Below, in pieces: positions 1,867-32,309 of a DNA stretch of 36,013 bases (the stretch's first letter is position 1; the number at the start of each line of letters is the position of its first letter). The notes under the pieces were generated by a model. The model was not told the DNA's origin and did not search any database. It saw nothing but the letters and a program-made list of their open reading frames with translations. Source of the stretch: a virus; UHGV virus genome UHGV-0124616, one strand, 5' to 3'. Made by a program: the position numbers and the translations under genes.

Positions 1867-2300
1867 GCAGAGTAACCGCGATTATCTCCGCTCTGGTTAT
1901 CTGCATCATCGTCTGTCTGTCATGGGCTGTTAATCATTACCGTGATAACGCCATCTCCTACAAAGAGCAGCGCGATAAAGCCACATCCACAATCGCTGAC
2001 ATGCAGAAGCGTCAACGTGATGTAGCAGAACTTGACGCCAGATACACAAAGGAGCTTGCTGATGCTAACGCGACTATCGAAAGTCTCCGTGCTGATGTTT
2101 CTGCTGGTCGTAAGCGCCTGCAAGTCGCCGCCACCTGTGCAAAGTCAACGACCGGAGCCAGCGGCATGGGCGATGGAGAAAGCCCAAGACTTACAGCAGA
2201 TGCTGAACTCAATTATTACCGTCTCCGAAGTGGAATCGACAGAATAACCGCGCAGGTTAACTACCTGCAGGAATACATCAGGACGCAATGCCTTCGATGA
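1863..2300 (+). CDS. Rz: Spanin inner-membrane subunit Rz (i-spanin)
   Basis: 145 aa with an N-terminal TM segment ([17 protein letters not shown]) and coiled-coil remainder. ATGA overlap with R. Synteny S-R-Rz. Confidence 0.9.
2062..2247 (+). CDS. Rz1: Spanin outer-membrane lipoprotein Rz1 (o-spanin), embedded in Rz in +1 frame
   Basis: Internal ATG at 2062 with RBS GGAG 7 nt upstream. Signal peptide [20 protein letters not shown] with lipobox-like VSAC, followed by a proline-rich mature part. Lies entirely inside Rz. Confidence 0.8.
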
Positions 2301-2474
2301 TAGCGATAATTTTACTCATCATCCTTCACATCTGGCTCTGTAGACAGGGTGGTGATCACTTCTGGAGTGAATCCAGATTAAACATCTCATTGCTGATGCT
2401 TGATATTGAGCATCTGGCGCGCAGTAAGGGGCTGCGTTGAGATAAGAGCCAGTTCATTACAAATACCAGGATTT

Positions 2475-2498
2475 AGCCTCGCATTCGCGGGGCTTTTT
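2475..2498 (+). terminator. Rho-independent terminator downstream of the lysis cassette
   Basis: Hairpin GCCTCGC-ATTC-GCGGGGC followed by TTTTT. The same 16-nt core recurs inverted at 23457-23472. Confidence 0.5.
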
Positions 2499-2642
2499 AT
2501 ATCTGAATTTCACAGCGCATCTCACGCGCATATTAACGAGAGCCTTTCAGTAAGCGAGCCTGAGAAATGCCGTTATAGGTGGCGACCTCTCTCGGGCGGC
2601 TTTTCTGTGAGACAGGCTCACTTTCTAAAAGGTAAAGACGCT

Positions 2643-3167
2643 ATGAATAATCATTCAGTTATTCCAGCCTTCGACTTCCGAGAAATGGTGCAAGCCAAAA
2701 ACGGAGAGGTCGTTACCACATCCAGAAAAATTGCCAAGTACTTCGGCAAGCGACACGGTGATGTTCTCAGGAAAATCGAGCAGGTTAAGGCTGATTGCTC
2801 GCGTGAGTTTAGCCAACGCAATTTTGCGTCGGCTGATTATATCGATGAGCAGGGCAAGGTTCGCCCGATGTACAGCCTGACGAAAGATGGCTGGATCATG
2901 GTTGTGATGGGGTTCACCGGGAAAGCTGCTGCGGCAATCAAGGAGAGCTATATCGCAGCATTCAACTGGATGGCAGAGCAACTGAGCCGCCGCATGGCAA
3001 TTGGCGAAGAAATGCAGCACCGCTACGCCATCAAAGAAACACGCTCAAAGCTGAAAGGTACGATCGGCAGTCGGTTAATGAACGAACGGAAGAAAGAGAA
3101 GCGTGTCCTGGCTGTCGAGCATGAATACATCTTGCAGGTGACGCAGCCCGAATTGCTGATTAATTGA
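2643..3167 (+). CDS. rha: Rha family phage regulatory protein (antirepressor-like)
   Basis: 174 aa from the internal ATG of ORF 2400..3167. Motif SRKIAKYFGKRHGDVLRKIE is typical of the Rha N-terminal domain. The upstream 81 codons of the track ORF are regarded as non-coding leader. Confidence 0.75.
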   Translation: MNNHSVIPAFDFREMVQAKNGEVVTTSRKIAKYFGKRHGDVLRKIEQVKADCSREFSQRNFASADYIDEQGKVRPMYSLTKDGWIMVVMGFTGKAAAAIKESYIAAFNWMAEQLSRRMAIGEEMQHRYAIKETRSKLKGTIGSRLMNERKKEKRVLAVEHEYILQVTQPELLIN

Positions 3168-3397
3168 AGATGCCATCACAAAGCCCATCTACGGGTGGGC
3201 TTGATAATGAAACCGGAATTTATTCTGGGCAACCAGTTACGGCAGTACAGCGAAACAACCCAAGCCAGTAAGTGGGGAAATAACACTGTCAGCCACTGAA
3301 AGATGAACCTCCAGCCTTATGGCAAAAAAGATTCTTTGTGGTGGCGGACTGATGGAAAGACATCCTAATCAAGCAACCACTCTACAGGGTCATAATT

Positions 3398-3769: not shown

Positions 3770-3872
3770 TTATTACAAAAGCCATTCCTTACTGAGTGGC
3801 TTTGATAATGGCTTATACCCTACACGGGATAACTTAACTGATATCCCTTTTAACGGATAAACGGAGCCAACA

Positions 3873-11130: not shown

Positions 11131-11137
11131 TAACCAG

Positions 11138-11160
11138 AGGGAGCTTCGGCTCCCTTTTTT
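11138..11160 (+). terminator. Rho-independent terminator after the coat gene
   Basis: Hairpin AGGGAGC-TTCG-GCTCCCT followed by TTTTTT, 8 nt after the coat stop. Confidence 0.7.
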
Positions 11161-11174
11161 ATCTGGAGACAAAC

Positions 11175-11406
<232 letters not shown>

Positions 11407-11429
<23 letters not shown>

Positions 11430-11907
11430 TTTAGTTCTTGCGGCATTACGTAAGCTCGGCGTGGCATCAAATGCCACGTTAACCGATGTCGAACCGCAGT
11501 CTATGGAAGACGGCATCAACGACCTTGAAATGATGATGGCTGAATGGCTTGGCGGTGATGCGTCACCTGGTATCAACGTTGGCTACATTTTTGCTGATGC
11601 AGATGTTGCTCCGGATCCGGGCGATGAGCACGGTTTATCAAATAACGCTATCAATGCCGTCATTTTCAACCTTGCCTGCCGCATTGCTCCGGATTATGCG
11701 CTGGAAGCGTCAGCAAAACTTATAACTACTGCCAGATACGGGAAAGAGCGACTCGTCAAACTGTCTGCAATGGACAGAGCAAAAGCCGCTAAATGTAAGT
11801 CCGGTTATCCAAACCGTATGCCTGTTGGTAGCGGTAACCAGTTGGCGAAGTGGAATGGTTGGAATTACTTCCACCGAAAGGAACCTTGCGATAACGGGAG
11901 CGAATAA
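11407..11907 (+). CDS. Head-to-tail adaptor / tail accessory factor (P22 gp4-like)
   Basis: 166 aa from the internal ATG of ORF 11314..11907. [29 protein letters not shown]... matches the P22 gp4 N-terminus as recalled. The track's QSQSQS extension is the repeat read in another frame. Confidence 0.9.
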
Positions 11908-21631: not shown

Positions 21632-22810
21632 ATGGCTATAAGCGACACAAAACTGCGTACTATTTATGGTAAACCATATTCGGGCCCACAAGAAGTGGCT
21701 GATGCCGATGGCCTCAGCGTACGAATTTCACCGAAGGGGGTCATCCAGTTCCAGTACCGCTATCGCTGGCATGGCAAGCCTAATCGACTTGGGCTTGGTC
21801 GATACCCATCCCTGTCTTTGAAGGATGCCAGACAGATCACTGCTGACTTGCGAAAGCTCTATTTCTCAGGAACGGATCCACGCACTTATTTTGAAGAGAA
21901 GGTGGAGAACTCCATGACGGTCGCCCAGTGTCTCGACTACTGGTTCGACAACTACGTCTCTACAACTCTCAGAGAAAAGACCCAGGCACTTTACCGATCA
22001 ACGGTTATGAAGCGCATGCATGACGCCTTTCCTAATCGTCCGGCATCTTCTATCACGGTTAAGCAATGGGTTGACCTGCTTACCGAAGAAGAAAGAGATA
22101 ATCCACGCCGAGCAAGGCAGGTGCTAAGTCAACTAAGATCAGCAATAAGTTGGTGCATGCGGCGCCAGTTGATAGATAGTTGCGCAATTATGAGCATCCA
22201 GCCAATGGACTTCGGCTCCCGCGCTGAGGTAGGGGATCGGGTACTGTCGTATCACGAACTGGCTAAGATTTGGCTTGCTATTGAAAGAAGCCGTGCGTCC
22301 ACGTCAAACAAGCTCCTTCATCAGATGCTTATGCTGTGGGGGGCGAGGCTCTCAGAGCTTAGGCTGGCAAAAAAGACAGAATTTGACCTGCTGGAAAACG
22401 TATGGACCGTACCGAAAGAGCATAGCAAGATGGGTAATGTTATCCGCCGTCCAATCTTCGAACAAATTAAGCCTTTCCTCGAAAAGGCCATGACAACGTA
22501 CAATGATGTTCTTTTCCCTGGAGAAGACATAAACAAACCGATCAGCATCGCTGCAGCCAACCGATTCGTAAATAGAATAAGGGGAGGGATGGATCTAGGT
22601 TACTGGCGAACACACGATTTCAGAAGAACGCTTGTTACACGTCTGTCCGAGATGAATGTCGAGCCTCATGTTACTGAGCGAATGCTCGGTCATGAACTTG
22701 GCGGGATAATGTCCGTATACAATAAACACGACTGGATAGAGGCTCAGCGCAAAGCGTATGAGCTTCACGCTGATAAATTGTTCTGGCACATCAGGAGCAT
22801 TTCTGATTAA
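21632..22810 (+). CDS. int: Tyrosine integrase, P4-like subfamily
   Basis: 392 aa. N-terminus ISDTKLRTIYGKP...GLSVRISPKGVIQFQYRYRWHGKPNRLGLGRYPSLSLKDAR is typical of the P4-type arm-binding domain. C-terminal HDFRRT motif. Confidence 0.9.
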   Translation: MAISDTKLRTIYGKPYSGPQEVADADGLSVRISPKGVIQFQYRYRWHGKPNRLGLGRYPSLSLKDARQITADLRKLYFSGTDPRTYFEEKVENSMTVAQCLDYWFDNYVSTTLREKTQALYRSTVMKRMHDAFPNRPASSITVKQWVDLLTEEERDNPRRARQVLSQLRSAISWCMRRQLIDSCAIMSIQPMDFGSRAEVGDRVLSYHELAKIWLAIERSRASTSNKLLHQMLMLWGARLSELRLAKKTEFDLLENVWTVPKEHSKMGNVIRRPIFEQIKPFLEKAMTTYNDVLFPGEDINKPISIAAANRFVNRIRGGMDLGYWRTHDFRRTLVTRLSEMNVEPHVTERMLGHELGGIMSVYNKHDWIEAQRKAYELHADKLFWHIRSISD

Positions 22811-22982
22811 CGCCACCGTTAAGAATCCACCCTTCAACAGCTTCACGAAGGTATGATTTGGGGTGGGTTCTGACTGGCTTCGGAAATCCGTGCCGTTTGG
22901 TATAGTTCCAGATTGTCTGACGTGATGAAACACCGAGCTTGTTCATCACTTCTTTCTCAGGAATCAGACTGGTATCGGTCAT
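22791..22982 (-). CDS. AlpA-family DNA-binding protein, probable excisionase/regulator
   Basis: 63 aa with ...LIPEKEVMNKLGVSSRQTIWNYTKRHGFPKPV..., consistent with the AlpA/Xis winged-helix family. RBS GGAG. Convergent with int and overlapping it by 20 nt. Confidence 0.65.
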   Translation of the reverse strand: MTDTSLIPEKEVMNKLGVSSRQTIWNYTKRHGFPKPVRTHPKSYLREAVEGWILNGGVNQKCS

Positions 22983-23059
22983 CTTAATTCTCCAGGCAAA
23001 AAGAAACCGCCATATAGCGGCTCTATCAGATATGTACAGGCCTCATCGAGTGTGAGGCG

Positions 23060-23404
23060 TTAGTCCTTGCGTAGCTCGCTGATTCTTCTGTAAGTCTCTG
23101 GTGCTTTGTTTCCGTGTATCTTCATTTCAGACTTCAACAGAGCAACGAGGGAATCCCATTCGTTGAGGATGCCTTTGAATGCCGGAACGCGCTTTGCAAC
23201 CTTGTCGAATGAATCTCTGATTTCTGGAATCTGCTCAACAAGCGCAACGCATCGCCGGAAGTCTGCTGCGTCATGTGGAGCACCGAAGCTATGACCATAG
23301 ATATTCTTTTTCAGTCCACATGCGATTGAGGCAAGAGTTGCGCTACTGATGCCGACATCGCCAGTCGATTGCCATTTCAAAACCTTCATAGCCAAATCTG
23401 ACAT
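23060..23404 (-). CDS. Hypothetical protein (114 aa), distal gene of the leftward operon
   Basis: RBS GGAG 6 nt upstream of the ATG. Bounded by terminator-like hairpins on both sides. No recognizable family. Confidence 0.5.
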   Translation of the reverse strand: MSDLAMKVLKWQSTGDVGISSATLASIACGLKKNIYGHSFGAPHDAADFRRCVALVEQIPEIRDSFDKVAKRVPAFKGILNEWDSLVALLKSEMKIHGNKAPETYRRISELRKD

Positions 23405-23453
23405 TTCTTGTCTCCATAAAACAAAACCCGCCGTAGCGAGTTCAGATAAAATA

Positions 23454-23472
23454 AATCCCCGCGAATGCGAGG
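23454..23472 (-). terminator. Terminator-like hairpin on the minus strand (CCTCGC-ATTC-GCGGGG plus ATTTATTTTAT)
   Basis: Reverse complement of 23457-23472 is the same 16-mer as the + strand terminator core at 2476-2491. Confidence 0.4.
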
Positions 23473-23476
23473 ATTG

Positions 23477-23761
23477 TTATTCATTGCCGATATTCACCTT
23501 TATCGCGAACACCTTTACCGGTTTATCTCCGAAGTGTGGATGTGTGATTGTCTTCACTTCATATCCGCCATACGGGACGTCAATTCTGCGACTGGAATCG
23601 TCGCGCTTCGGATATCCCTTTGTGATAATCAGGCGGTCATACTCGCGGAACATAATTCGCTTATTCCAGTAGCCATTGCACAGGCGATACTCTTCCGTTT
23701 TCTCTCCGCGAATCATGGCATCGAAGTATTCACCTTTGACGGCAAGTTGCAGGTTAGCCAC
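23477..23761 (-). CDS. Hypothetical protein (about 95 aa, GTG start); possibly ASCH-like fold
   Basis: GTG at 23761 with RBS GGAGG 6 nt upstream, 2 nt after the upstream stop. The track ATG at 23836 would overlap the upstream gene by 83 nt. Domain guess is weak. Confidence 0.4.
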   Translation of the reverse strand: MANLQLAVKGEYFDAMIRGEKTEEYRLCNGYWNKRIMFREYDRLIITKGYPKRDDSSRRIDVPYGGYEVKTITHPHFGDKPVKVFAIKVNIGNE

Positions 23762-23972
23762 GGTTAACCTCCTGCGCCGTTTTGATGATTGCTGCCAGAC
23801 AATTCTTGCAAGGAACAAGCAGCGGTCCCTGCTCAATGCTCAATAGCGCATGCTGAGCACCATGAAAAAGCCATTCGAATGACCCAGGCCGATGACCGCA
23901 CCATGTCTCAATCTCGTGCTTAGGGAGTTTAACTCCCTCTCGATAGTCATATTTGATGATGTGCTTGCTCAC
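23754..23972 (-). CDS. Hypothetical protein (72 aa, GTG start)
   Basis: RBS GGAGG upstream. Translationally coupled to both neighbours. Confidence 0.4.
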   Translation of the reverse strand: MSKHIIKYDYREGVKLPKHEIETWCGHRPGSFEWLFHGAQHALLSIEQGPLLVPCKNCLAAIIKTAQEVNRG

Positions 23973-30365: not shown

Positions 30366-30428
30366 AGTATCACCGCTAGTGGTATGTGTGTCAACACCGC
30401 CAGAGATAATTTATCACCGCAGATGGTT
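30366..30428 (-). promoter_or_regulatory. Lambda-type left operator oL1-oL2-oL3 with pL
   Basis: Three 17-bp lambda operators: TATCACCGCTAGTGGTA (30368-30384), CAACACCGCCAGAGATA (30392-30408), TATCACCGCAGATGGTT (30412-30428). On the minus strand -35 TTGACA and -10 GATACT with 17-nt spacer. Confidence 0.9.
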
Positions 30429-32240: not shown

Positions 32241-32309
32241 AATCTATCACCGCAAGGGATAAATATCTAACACCGTGCGTGTTGACTATTTTACCTCTAG
32301 CGGTGATAA
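32241..32309. promoter_or_regulatory. Lambda-type right operator oR3-oR2-oR1 with divergent pRM and pR
   Basis: TATCACCGCAAGGGATA (32245-32261), TAACACCGTGCGTGTTG (32268-32284), TACCTCTAGCGGTGATA (32292-32308). pR -35 TTGACT and -10 GATAAT on +; pRM -35 TAGATA and -10 TAGATT on -. Confidence 0.92.

What the first reader, a model, noticed from the sequence alone, without database searches (positions are those of the whole stretch)
2476..2491. Same 16-nt terminator hairpin core at two distant sites in opposite orientation
CCTCGCATTCGCGGGG occurs on the + strand at 2476-2491 (followed by TTTTT, after the lysis cassette) and as its exact reverse complement at 23457-23472 (so on the minus strand it is again hairpin plus ATTTATTTTAT, upstream of the 114-aa gene 23404..23060). 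A 16-mer is unlikely to recur by chance in 36 kb. It may be a portable terminator module marking moron boundaries or a recombination linker.
Basis: seen in the sequence. Interest (0 to 1): 0.45.

Follow-up and report, generated by a model that had tools for sequence, protein, structure and literature searches.

The report
Shared terminator hairpin at phage module junctions
Two copies of one small hairpin in this P22/Sf6-like phage look like ordinary transcription stop signals, each pointing along its own operon and each sitting where neighbouring gene cassettes are swapped between related phages; the first copy is also the constant front end of a folded RNA leader, absent from the RNA-family library searched and from the papers I could search, that precedes antirepressor-like genes.

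Summary
CCTCGCATTCGCGGGG lies at 2477-2492 (+) and 23457-23472 (-); shuffles expect 0.02 matches. Both copies have the anatomy of intrinsic terminators, co-oriented with the late operon (+) and the PL operon (-). A G·U pair weakens each on the opposite strand. No termination data exist.

Site 2 is the homologue of a terminator already predicted in lambda's exo-xis region (t3, followed by t4). Most relatives carry loop ACTC, so the exact 16/16 identity here rests on a minority loop variant.

Both sites are common in E. coli prophages. Both sit on mosaic junctions: six different right-hand neighbours at site 1, at least ten left-hand neighbours at site 2.

The same 16-mer plus T-run also occurs as a terminator in unrelated bacteria, so convergence is not excluded. 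A shared tail, TATCTGAA, favours common descent only moderately.

By-product: site 1 is the 5' border of a roughly 120-nt pseudoknotted leader with strong covariation and no Rfam match. It precedes Rha, KilA-N or ANT genes in many phages, including P22.

Verdict: ordinary, real terminators. "Portable boundary module" is partly supported; "moron" is not shown.

The parts
2475..2498 (+). Site 1 intrinsic-terminator-like hairpin. The core 16-mer is 2477-2492, the stem extends to A2475-T2494, the loop is ATTC, and the T-run is 2494-2498.
   Evidence: -15.3 kcal/mol on the sense strand against -10.7 on the antisense strand; top-ranked site: 8 pairs, 6 G-C.
23441..23475 (-). Site 2 first hairpin. 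The core 16-mer is 23457-23472, the stem extends to 23454-23475, and the tail ATTTATTTTATCTGAA runs down to 23441. It is the homologue of the predicted lambda terminator t3.
   Evidence: lambda sequence; t3 lambda in PMC4195576.
23418..23443 (-). Site 2 second hairpin, CTCGC-TACG-GCGGG (23427-23440), plus TTTTGTTTT (23418-23426). It has the same stem as the 16-mer, one pair shorter, and is the homologue of the predicted lambda terminator t4. It runs directly into the ribosome-binding site GGAGA of the 114-aa gene.
23004..23023 (-). Third terminator-like hairpin, after the 114-aa gene and before the xis/AlpA-like gene.
23060..23404 (-). 114-aa gene bracketed by the hairpins. It is the homologue of HK022_32, annotated there as an 'N15 early protein homolog'. 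It has no Pfam match.
2288..2440 (+). Sf6 gene-65-like small ORF. Its 3' end plus a 36-nt spacer form the conserved left flank of site 1.
2515..2632 (+). Structured leader between site 1 and rha. Small hairpin GCGC-N7-GCGC at 2515-2529. PK: 2537-2542 with 2589-2594. P1: 2543-2550 with 2625-2632, which includes the ribosome-binding site. P2: 2556-2562 with 2613-2619. P3: 2563-2572 with 2597-2606.
   Evidence: (covariation; no Rfam match).
2643..3167 (+). rha gene (Phage_pRha, PF09669). It is the cargo downstream of site 1 and the leader.
2464..3182 (+). Segment holding terminator, leader and rha. It is present here and absent from Sf6, and is bounded by the direct repeats CATTACAAA (2455-2463) and CATCACAAA (3174-3182).

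Best explanation
Both copies are Rho-independent (intrinsic) terminators, each serving the operon it lies in. On the + strand, site 1 follows the lysis cassette (holin, endolysin, Rz/Rz1, gene-65-like ORF) of the late operon. On the - strand, site 2, with a second hairpin of the same stem 14 nt further on, lies in the distal PL (exo-xis type) region between an ASCH-like gene and a 114-aa gene, upstream of xis. Inferred mechanism: unmodified RNA polymerase pauses on the U-tract, the hairpin forms and the transcript is released. Q-modified late polymerase and N-modified early polymerase read through. The downstream cassettes (rha; the 114-aa gene and xis) would then be expressed only from antiterminated transcripts, and stray transcription would be confined. 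The U·G pair in the stem becomes a C·A mismatch on the other strand, and no U-tract follows there, so each terminator works in one direction only. These hairpins are the only sequence shared by otherwise unrelated neighbours, so they coincide with the joints of the mosaic: cassettes to the right of site 1 and to the left of site 2 differ between relatives. The two copies most likely belong to one family of lambdoid terminators with stem CCUCGC/GCGGGG and a free loop. Site 1 is in addition the constant 5' element of a portable unit made of terminator, pseudoknotted leader and an antirepressor-like gene. Shown here: sequence, fold, orientation, conservation, junction positions and leader covariation. 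Inferred: termination itself, readthrough by antitermination, common descent of the two sites, and any role in recombination.
For: Exact match and chance level.

Folds: -15.3 and -14.0 kcal/mol on the sense strands against -10.7 and -9.7 on the antisense strands, z = -3.5 and -4.4.

Rank: among the best-scoring terminator-like sites on the correct strand.

Operon directions: Q, tRNAs, lysis genes and rha are on +. The PL-like promoter at 30394-30366 and the recombination and ea-type genes are on -.

Lambda carries the site-2 element with 15 of 16 core bases identical and near-identical downstream sequence. These were predicted as terminators t3 and t4 by ERPIN/RNAmotif in PMC4195576. HK022 has the exact 16-mer.

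Prevalence: the site-1 region matches in 1978 and the site-2 region in 1649 of 5426 complete E. coli genomes.

Junctions: of 121 loci anchored on the left flank of site 1, 97 have the hairpin, followed by 6 unrelated sequences that start right after TTTTTAT, and 24 lack it. Of 125 loci anchored on the right flank of site 2, 97 have the hairpin, preceded by at least 10 unrelated gene ends; homology starts at the stop codon, with TAACAAT in 65.

Family character of the stem: 95 of 96 distinct leaders have a terminator upstream. 80 of them have stem CCTCGY/GCGGGG, with 19 different loops. P22 has GCCTCGC-AGAT-GCGGGGC after gene 15. The second hairpin of site 2 has the same stem.

Shared tail TATCTGAA at a 1-nt offset: third-best of 741 pairs among independent contexts of the same 16-mer.
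Against: No transcript 3' ends were available and no mapping study was found for these sites; the lambda sites are predictions only.

The U-tract of site 2 is interrupted (AUUUAUUUU), so it may be a weak terminator.

In lytic growth both operons are transcribed by antiterminated polymerase, so the benefit of terminators here is inferred, not shown.

The exact 16-mer followed by a T-run occurs in about 35 of 120 sampled hits in bacteria of many phyla, and in Pseudomonas and Vibrio phages. Identity of the core alone therefore does not prove common descent.

Most site-2 homologues have loop ACTC (about 70 of 125; ATTC in at most 11, and that count is inflated by how the loci were fetched).

Overall tail similarity ranks only 32nd of 741.
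Confidence: 0.78

Rival explanations
1. Convergence. The two sites are unrelated terminators that share the core because strong, short, one-directional terminators occupy a small sequence space. The exact 16/16 identity in this genome is helped by a chance C-to-T change in the loop of site 2.
For: The identical 16-mer with an extended stem and a T-run occurs in very different bacteria, including Chitinophaga, Vibrio, Morganella, Shewanella, Clostridia, Fibrobacter and Flavobacteriaceae, and in Pseudomonas and Vibrio phages with unrelated flanks. Loop ACTC is the majority form at site 2. The coat-gene terminator at 11136-11157 also has a tail TTTTTTATCTGGA, so 'T-run + ATCTG' is not unique to the pair.
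Against: The stems are identical, including the position of the G·U pair. The tail shares TATCTGAA, third of 741 pairs. The same stem recurs a third time at 23427-23440, and at the homologous position before the leader with 19 different loops. That pattern suggests a family kept by descent within the lambdoid gene pool.
Confidence: 0.3
2. Active recombination linker. The 25-30 nt of hairpin plus T-run, shared by many cassettes, is itself the substrate at which phage Erf/Red-type or host recombination swaps the neighbouring modules. On this view the junctions are caused by the element rather than merely tolerated there.
For: Breakpoints fall within a few bases of the element on both sides. The hairpin is linked to the gene-65 flank without the leader, and to the leader without the gene-65 flank. 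Two further joints in the window lie at short repeats: CAT(T/C)ACAAA around the rha cassette, and T-run+AT(T)GGAGA around the missing HK022_33 homologue. The window encodes its own recombination genes in the PL operon (by similarity with Sf6).
Against: Illegitimate recombination followed by selection for intact genes and signals gives the same picture. No chimeric hairpin with a marker loop linking different flanks was looked for. 16-30 nt is at or below the usual minimum for efficient homologous exchange (established knowledge). None of the 'boundary sequences' annotated in Sf6 coincides with either site.
Confidence: 0.3
3. RNA processing or stability element. In the long antiterminated transcripts the hairpins do not terminate. 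They act as 3' barriers to exonucleases after cleavage in the A/U-rich tail (UUUUAUAUCUGAAUUU) and so set different half-lives for neighbouring cassettes.
For: Both operons are read by antiterminated polymerase in lytic growth, so a role that does not depend on termination is attractive. The tail ATCTGAA is conserved beyond what a U-tract needs.
Against: There is no direct evidence. The anatomy is fully accounted for by a terminator. This role would be additional rather than alternative.
Confidence: 0.15

Closest known systems
[quoted passage not shown] 2014, PMC4195576)
   Same: Site 2 and its second hairpin are the same element. Lambda reads TAACAAT-CCTCGCACTCGCGGGG-ATTTATTTTATCTGAACTCGCTACGGCGGGTTTTGTTTTATGGAGA between ea8.5 and lambdap35. 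Strand, operon and position upstream of xis are the same.
   Different: The loop is ACTC in lambda and ATTC here. The window lacks the small gene (lambdap35 / HK022_33) and the t5-type hairpin that follow in lambda and HK022. Integrase here is on the opposite strand. The lambda sites are software predictions, not mapped ends.
Classical lambda terminators overridden by N and Q (tL1-tL3, tR1-tR2, tR')
   Same: Intrinsic terminators inside antiterminated operons, read through by modified polymerase (established knowledge). Sf6 annotates tR', tL2A, tR1, tR2 and t-coat in the same way.
   Different: No sequence relationship was tested or claimed. Neither site is annotated in the Sf6, P22, lambda or HK022 records seen.
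'Boundary sequences' (bsq) annotated in phage Sf6, and the older linker idea of modular phage evolution
   Same: A short conserved sequence at the joint between non-homologous neighbouring modules.
   Different: Neither site coincides with an annotated bsq. The nearest, bsq7, lies inside Rz (1932-1979). Here the shared sequence is a functional signal, so selection rather than recombination targeting may explain it.
Morons of lambdoid phages (extra gene with its own promoter and terminator; Juhala et al. 2000, cited in PMC2629481)
   Same: Variable cargo genes bracketed by terminator-like hairpins. The 114-aa gene has hairpins on both sides. The rha cassette is present or absent between relatives.
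   Different: No promoter consensus precedes either cargo, and the terminator lies upstream of rha rather than downstream.

Membership tests
Rho-independent (intrinsic) terminator | G+C-rich stem of about 5-12 pairs with a short loop | tested here: met
   Site 1: 8 pairs, 6 of them G-C, loop of 4. Site 2: 9 pairs, 5 of them G-C, loop of 4.
Rho-independent (intrinsic) terminator | U-tract immediately 3' of the stem | tested here: met
   Site 1: CUUUUUA. Site 2: AUUUAUUUUAU, which is interrupted and so possibly weaker. The second hairpin at site 2 has UUUUGUUUU.
Rho-independent (intrinsic) terminator | Intergenic position, co-oriented with the transcription unit | tested here: met
   Site 1 lies 37 nt after the stop of the gene-65-like ORF on +. 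Site 2 lies 4 nt after the stop of ORF 23477..23836 on -.
Rho-independent (intrinsic) terminator | Transcripts end there in vivo or in vitro | not testable with these tools
   No RNA data. No mapping study was found.
Lambda exo-xis predicted terminators t3/t4 | Sequence homology including flanks and the same genomic position | tested here: met
   15 of 16 core bases plus about 50 nt of near-identical downstream sequence in lambda. Exact core in HK022.
Moron | Own promoter upstream of the cargo gene | tested here: not met
   No sigma-70-type consensus between the hairpins and rha or the 114-aa gene. Only 20 nt separate the second hairpin from the ATG. A consensus scan cannot exclude weak or non-sigma-70 promoters.
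Moron | Cargo present or absent between otherwise collinear relatives | tested here: met
   The rha segment 2464-3182 is absent from Sf6. The HK022_33 homologue is absent here.
Sf6-type boundary sequence | Conserved short sequence flanked by non-homologous DNA in different phages | tested here: met
   6 right-hand contexts at site 1 and at least 10 left-hand contexts at site 2.
Sf6-type boundary sequence | Identity with one of the annotated bsq features | tested here: not met
   bsq2 to bsq7 in NC_005344 lie elsewhere.
Any curated RNA family (Rfam 15) | Match at or near the gathering score | tested here: not met
   Only two tRNAs reach threshold in the window. Around both sites the best hits score 14-22 bits against thresholds of 35-114 bits. 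At site 2 they are mostly leaders and sRNAs overlapping the hairpins.

The most novel reading that the evidence does not exclude
The CCUCGC/GCGGGG terminator at site 1 is the fixed 5' border of a portable regulatory unit that is not in Rfam 15 and that four full-text searches did not turn up. The unit consists of the terminator, a small GCGC hairpin and a roughly 120-nt leader RNA with three nested helices and a pseudoknot that buries the ribosome-binding site. It controls translation of interchangeable antirepressor-like late genes (Rha, KilA-N, ANT) in P22-like and other lambdoid phages, P22 itself included. The terminator stem doubles as the homology at which such units and their neighbours are exchanged, and the exo-xis terminators (lambda t3/t4) are offshoots of the same stem family.
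Probability: 0.4. Interest if true: 0.6.

Novelty: new member of a known kind. Interest (0 to 1): 0.3.

Why it matters
In themselves the hairpins are routine: two more intrinsic terminators in a lambdoid phage, one of them already predicted in lambda. They have value in three respects.

1. They give a clean, countable case for the old question of how phage mosaics are joined, by shared linker sequences or by random joints filtered by selection. One short functional signal sits at the joint of many different cassette pairs in thousands of prophages.

2. They show that exact repeats found by eye in phage genomes can be terminator cores that recur by convergence across bacteria. This is a useful caution for repeat-based screens.

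3. Site 1 led to a covarying, pseudoknotted leader upstream of Rha, KilA-N and ANT genes. The leader is absent from Rfam, present in P22, and directly testable with existing genetics. It also implies that the annotated start of P22 rha lies inside non-coding RNA.

Tried and rejected
- Rfam, at gathering threshold on the whole window and at E<=10 around both sites, gave only tRNAs and sub-threshold terminator-type hits.
- Consensus promoter scans gave no promoter next to either cargo. I also looked by eye for a -10/-35 pair around the GCGC hairpin. Some relatives have a perfect TATAAT, but the only -35-like hexamer is 20-21 nt away, so I do not claim a promoter.
- attP, cos/pac and an inversion substrate were considered and rejected. 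Integrase and its likely att region lie at 21.0-21.6 kb. The repeat is too short, and an inversion of the 21 kb between the copies would break both operons.
- A dispersed-repeat family of REP type was rejected: there are only two exact copies and one stem relative in 36 kb.
- Four literature searches found nothing on mapped 3' ends at these sites, a described rha leader or a described boundary sequence here, beyond the lambda predictions. The Henthorn and Friedman 1995 rha paper is not held.
- MAFFT alignments of the leader (A1-A3) misplaced indels in the helices. RNAalifold on A1 recovered only part of the structure. I therefore cut the helix strands out by fixed anchors and counted pairs on a gapless block alignment. 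No covariance model was built.
- I did not test whether the ATTC loop at site 2 arose by gene conversion from site 1. That needs both sites from the same contigs.
Loci fetched with the 16-mer itself inflate the share of ATTC loops in pooled counts.

Full report
**What the window is.** The window is a P22/Sf6-like lambdoid phage genome.
- On the + strand it carries a Q-like gene (105-593), two tRNAs (685-837), then holin, endolysin, Rz/Rz1 and a small gene-65-like ORF (1083-2440, the same coordinates as in Sf6). After these come rha, a gp66-family gene, a DUF2560 gene, terminase, portal, coat and tailspike.
- Further along are an integrase on + (21632-22810) and an AlpA-like xis on - (22791-22982).
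- On the - strand lies an early-left operon that starts at a PL-like promoter near 30394.

**Observation.** CCTCGCATTCGCGGGG occurs exactly twice, at 2477-2492 on + and at 23457-23472 on -. The finding's first coordinate is one base too low. There are no further copies even with two mismatches. Shuffled sequence gives 0.02 matches on average. The described tails are correct. The repeat extends to 20 nt with one mismatch.

**Anatomy.**
- Stem and loop: each copy folds, with its flanking bases, into a 7-9 bp stem with a 4-nt loop and one U·G pair, followed by a T-rich tail.
- Stability: the sense strands fold to -15.3 and -14.0 kcal/mol (z = -3.5 and -4.4). On the antisense strands the U·G becomes a C·A mismatch, stability drops to -10.7 and -9.7, and no U-tract follows.
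- Rank: both are among the best terminator-like sites found by the scan, on the strand of the local operon.
- Second hairpin: fourteen bases beyond site 2 lies CTCGC-TACG-GCGGG with TTTTGTTTT. Its stem is the same as that of the 16-mer, one pair shorter. It runs straight into the ribosome-binding site of the 114-aa gene.
- Third hairpin: another hairpin follows that gene, before xis.

**Site 2 is a known element.** Lambda carries, between ea8.5 and the small ORF lambdap35, the sequence TAACAAT-CCTCGCACTCGCGGGG-ATTTATTTTATCTGAACTCGCTACGGCGGGTTTTGTTTTATGGAGA.
- Bloch et al. 2014 (PMC4195576) list these two hairpins as predicted terminators t3 and t4 of the exo-xis region, and the next one as t5.
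- HK022 has the exact 16-mer at the same place.
- In 125 related loci anchored on the second hairpin, about 70 have the lambda loop ACTC. At most 11 have ATTC. A quarter have another hairpin or none.
- The 16/16 identity in this window therefore depends on a minority single-base loop variant. The general resemblance between the two sites is 15 of 16, with identical stems.

**Both sites are widespread.** Ninety bases around site 1 match in 1978 of 5426 complete E. coli genomes. Eighty-six bases around site 2 match in 1649. No feature is annotated there in the top-ranked genomes listed. Hundreds of phage records match as well.

**Both sites sit on mosaic joints.**
- Site 1: the left flank (end of gene 65 plus spacer) is constant. 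Of 121 loci anchored on it, 97 carry the hairpin. Just after TTTTTAT it is followed by one of six unrelated sequences. The other 24, Sf6 among them, lack the hairpin and continue with a different hairpin element.
- Compared with Sf6, the window has an extra 719 bp (2464-3182) made of terminator, leader and rha, bounded by CAT(T/C)ACAAA repeats.
- Site 2: the right flank is constant and the left is not. 97 of 125 loci have the hairpin, preceded by at least ten unrelated gene ends. Homology begins at the stop codon, with TAACAAT in 65 cases.
- The window also lacks the HK022_33/lambdap35 gene. The joint lies between two copies of the T-run plus AT(T)GGAGA ribosome-binding motif.
- None of the 'boundary sequences' annotated in Sf6 coincides with either site.

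**Same origin or convergence?** The two readings each have support.
- For convergence: the exact 16-mer occurs in more than 20 different contexts in viral contigs, nearly all followed by a T-run, including Pseudomonas and Vibrio phages. In a scan of one genome per bacterial species, about 35 of 120 sampled hits are clear terminators in very different phyla. The rest are chance matches in G+C-rich coding DNA. This core is therefore a recurrent generic solution.
- For common descent: the stems match exactly, including the wobble position. The tails share TATCTGAA at a one-base offset, third of 741 pairs among independent contexts, although only 32nd by overall tail alignment. The stem appears a third time in the window. 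The same stem with 19 different loops occupies the homologous position in front of the leader described below.
- I put common descent within the lambdoid pool somewhat ahead of convergence, without a decisive test.

**What site 1 belongs to.** Between site 1 and the rha start lies a leader that recurs behind unrelated upstream genes, always beginning at the hairpin.
Pooled with the loci already held, this gave 137 instances.
- 95 of 96 distinct leaders have a terminator hairpin and T-run upstream. 80 have the CCTCGY/GCGGGG stem.
- The leader has a small GCGC hairpin, three nested helices (P1, P2, P3) and a pseudoknot. P1 includes the ribosome-binding site.
- I built a gapless block alignment of 32 distinct leaders. 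Strands were cut out by fixed anchors, except the 3' strand of the pseudoknot, whose register was chosen by best match.
  - 91.3% of cells pair, against 80.8% in shuffles (0 of 500 reach the observed value).
  - 17 pairs show changes on both sides.
  - The covariation score is 0.290 against 0.123 (0 of 500).
  - Sliding the partners by 1-3 columns gives 28-48% pairing.
  - P3 covaries at 8 of 10 pairs.
- A cognate versus swapped-partner test agrees.
- The genes that follow belong to different families: Rha, KilA-N, ANT, T5orf172 and others. The leader's 3' end is therefore another joint.
- There is no Rfam match, and four literature searches found no description.
- P22 has the unit after gene 15, as GCCTCGC-AGAT-GCGGGGC followed by the leader. 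Its annotated rha GTG start lies inside the leader. An ATG 70 nt downstream, with a proper ribosome-binding site, fits the other family members.

**How it most likely works.**
- Shown: sequence, fold, orientation, conservation, junction positions and covariation of the leader.
- Inferred from established knowledge of lambdoid gene control: unmodified polymerase terminates at these sites, while Q- or N-modified polymerase reads through. On this reading rha on one side, and the 114-aa gene and xis on the other, are expressed only from antiterminated transcripts. The wobble pair keeps each signal one-directional.
- The coincidence with mosaic joints has two possible causes. Recombinants may survive only when they keep genes and signals intact. 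Or the shared 25-30 nt may itself serve as recombination homology. The data do not separate these.

**Verdict.** One is already predicted in lambda. The other is unannotated in the records seen, but of a standard kind. The 'moron' label is not, because no promoter was found. The most interesting result is the by-product: a covarying pseudoknotted leader, absent from Rfam 15 and from the papers I could search, for which site 1 is the constant front end.

Noticed in passing
window 2515-2632 (+): Conserved structured leader upstream of rha, with a GCGC hairpin, helices P1-P3 and a pseudoknot; P1 covers the ribosome-binding site. It covaries strongly across 32 distinct versions, has no Rfam match, and precedes Rha, KilA-N, ANT or other genes in many phages.
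   Followed up: partly
L494 (P22, NC_002371) 660-850: P22 carries the same terminator stem (loop AGAT) and the leader after gene 15. The annotated rha start (GTG, record position 39575) lies inside the leader. An ATG 70 nt downstream (locus position 846) with GAAGG in front fits the other family members, so Rha would be about 178 aa rather than 201 aa.
   Followed up: partly
window 2464-3182: The terminator + leader + rha segment is an insertion relative to Sf6, or a deletion in Sf6. It is bounded by 9-bp direct repeats CATTACAAA and CATCACAAA.
   Followed up: yes
window 3178-3209 and 3775-3810 (+): A second hairpin family with conserved flanks and different stems: ACAAAGCCCATCTACGGGTGGGCTTGATAATG and ACAAAAGCCATTCCTTACTGAGTGGCTTTGATAATG. 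The same type follows the 16-mer directly in many relatives and replaces it in Sf6. No T-run follows, so it is probably not a terminator. Its function is unknown.
   Followed up: no
window 23405-23420 (-) compared with L123 (HK022) 2570-2795: The small gene present in HK022 (HK022_33) and lambda (lambdap35), with its following hairpin, is missing here. The joint lies between two near-identical motifs of T-run + AT(T)GGAGA + CAAGAAATG/TGATAAATG, which suggests deletion by recombination between the ribosome-binding regions of adjacent cassettes.
   Followed up: partly
window 11136-11167 (+): The strong terminator after the coat gene (AGAGGGAGC-TTCG-GCTCCCTTT) has the tail TTTTTTATCTGGA, which resembles the TTTTAT(AT)CTGAA tails of both 16-mer sites. 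A motif 'T-run + ATCTG' may be a common feature of terminators in this phage group.
   Followed up: no
window 21632-22982: The integrase is on the + strand and overlaps, tail to tail by 20 bp, an AlpA-like excisionase gene on the - strand. Integrase is therefore not part of the PL transcript, unlike in lambda and HK022.
   Followed up: no
window 30368-30397 and 32279-32308: A 30-nt inverted repeat (80% complementary) coincides with the best promoter-like sites on opposite strands. These are presumably the OL/PL and OR/PR operator-promoter regions flanking the repressor gene.
   Followed up: no
window 11320-11361 (+): Tandem hexamer CAGAGC, about seven copies, at the start of ORF 11314..11907. 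It would encode a short Gln/Ser/Glu/Pro-rich repeat.
   Followed up: no
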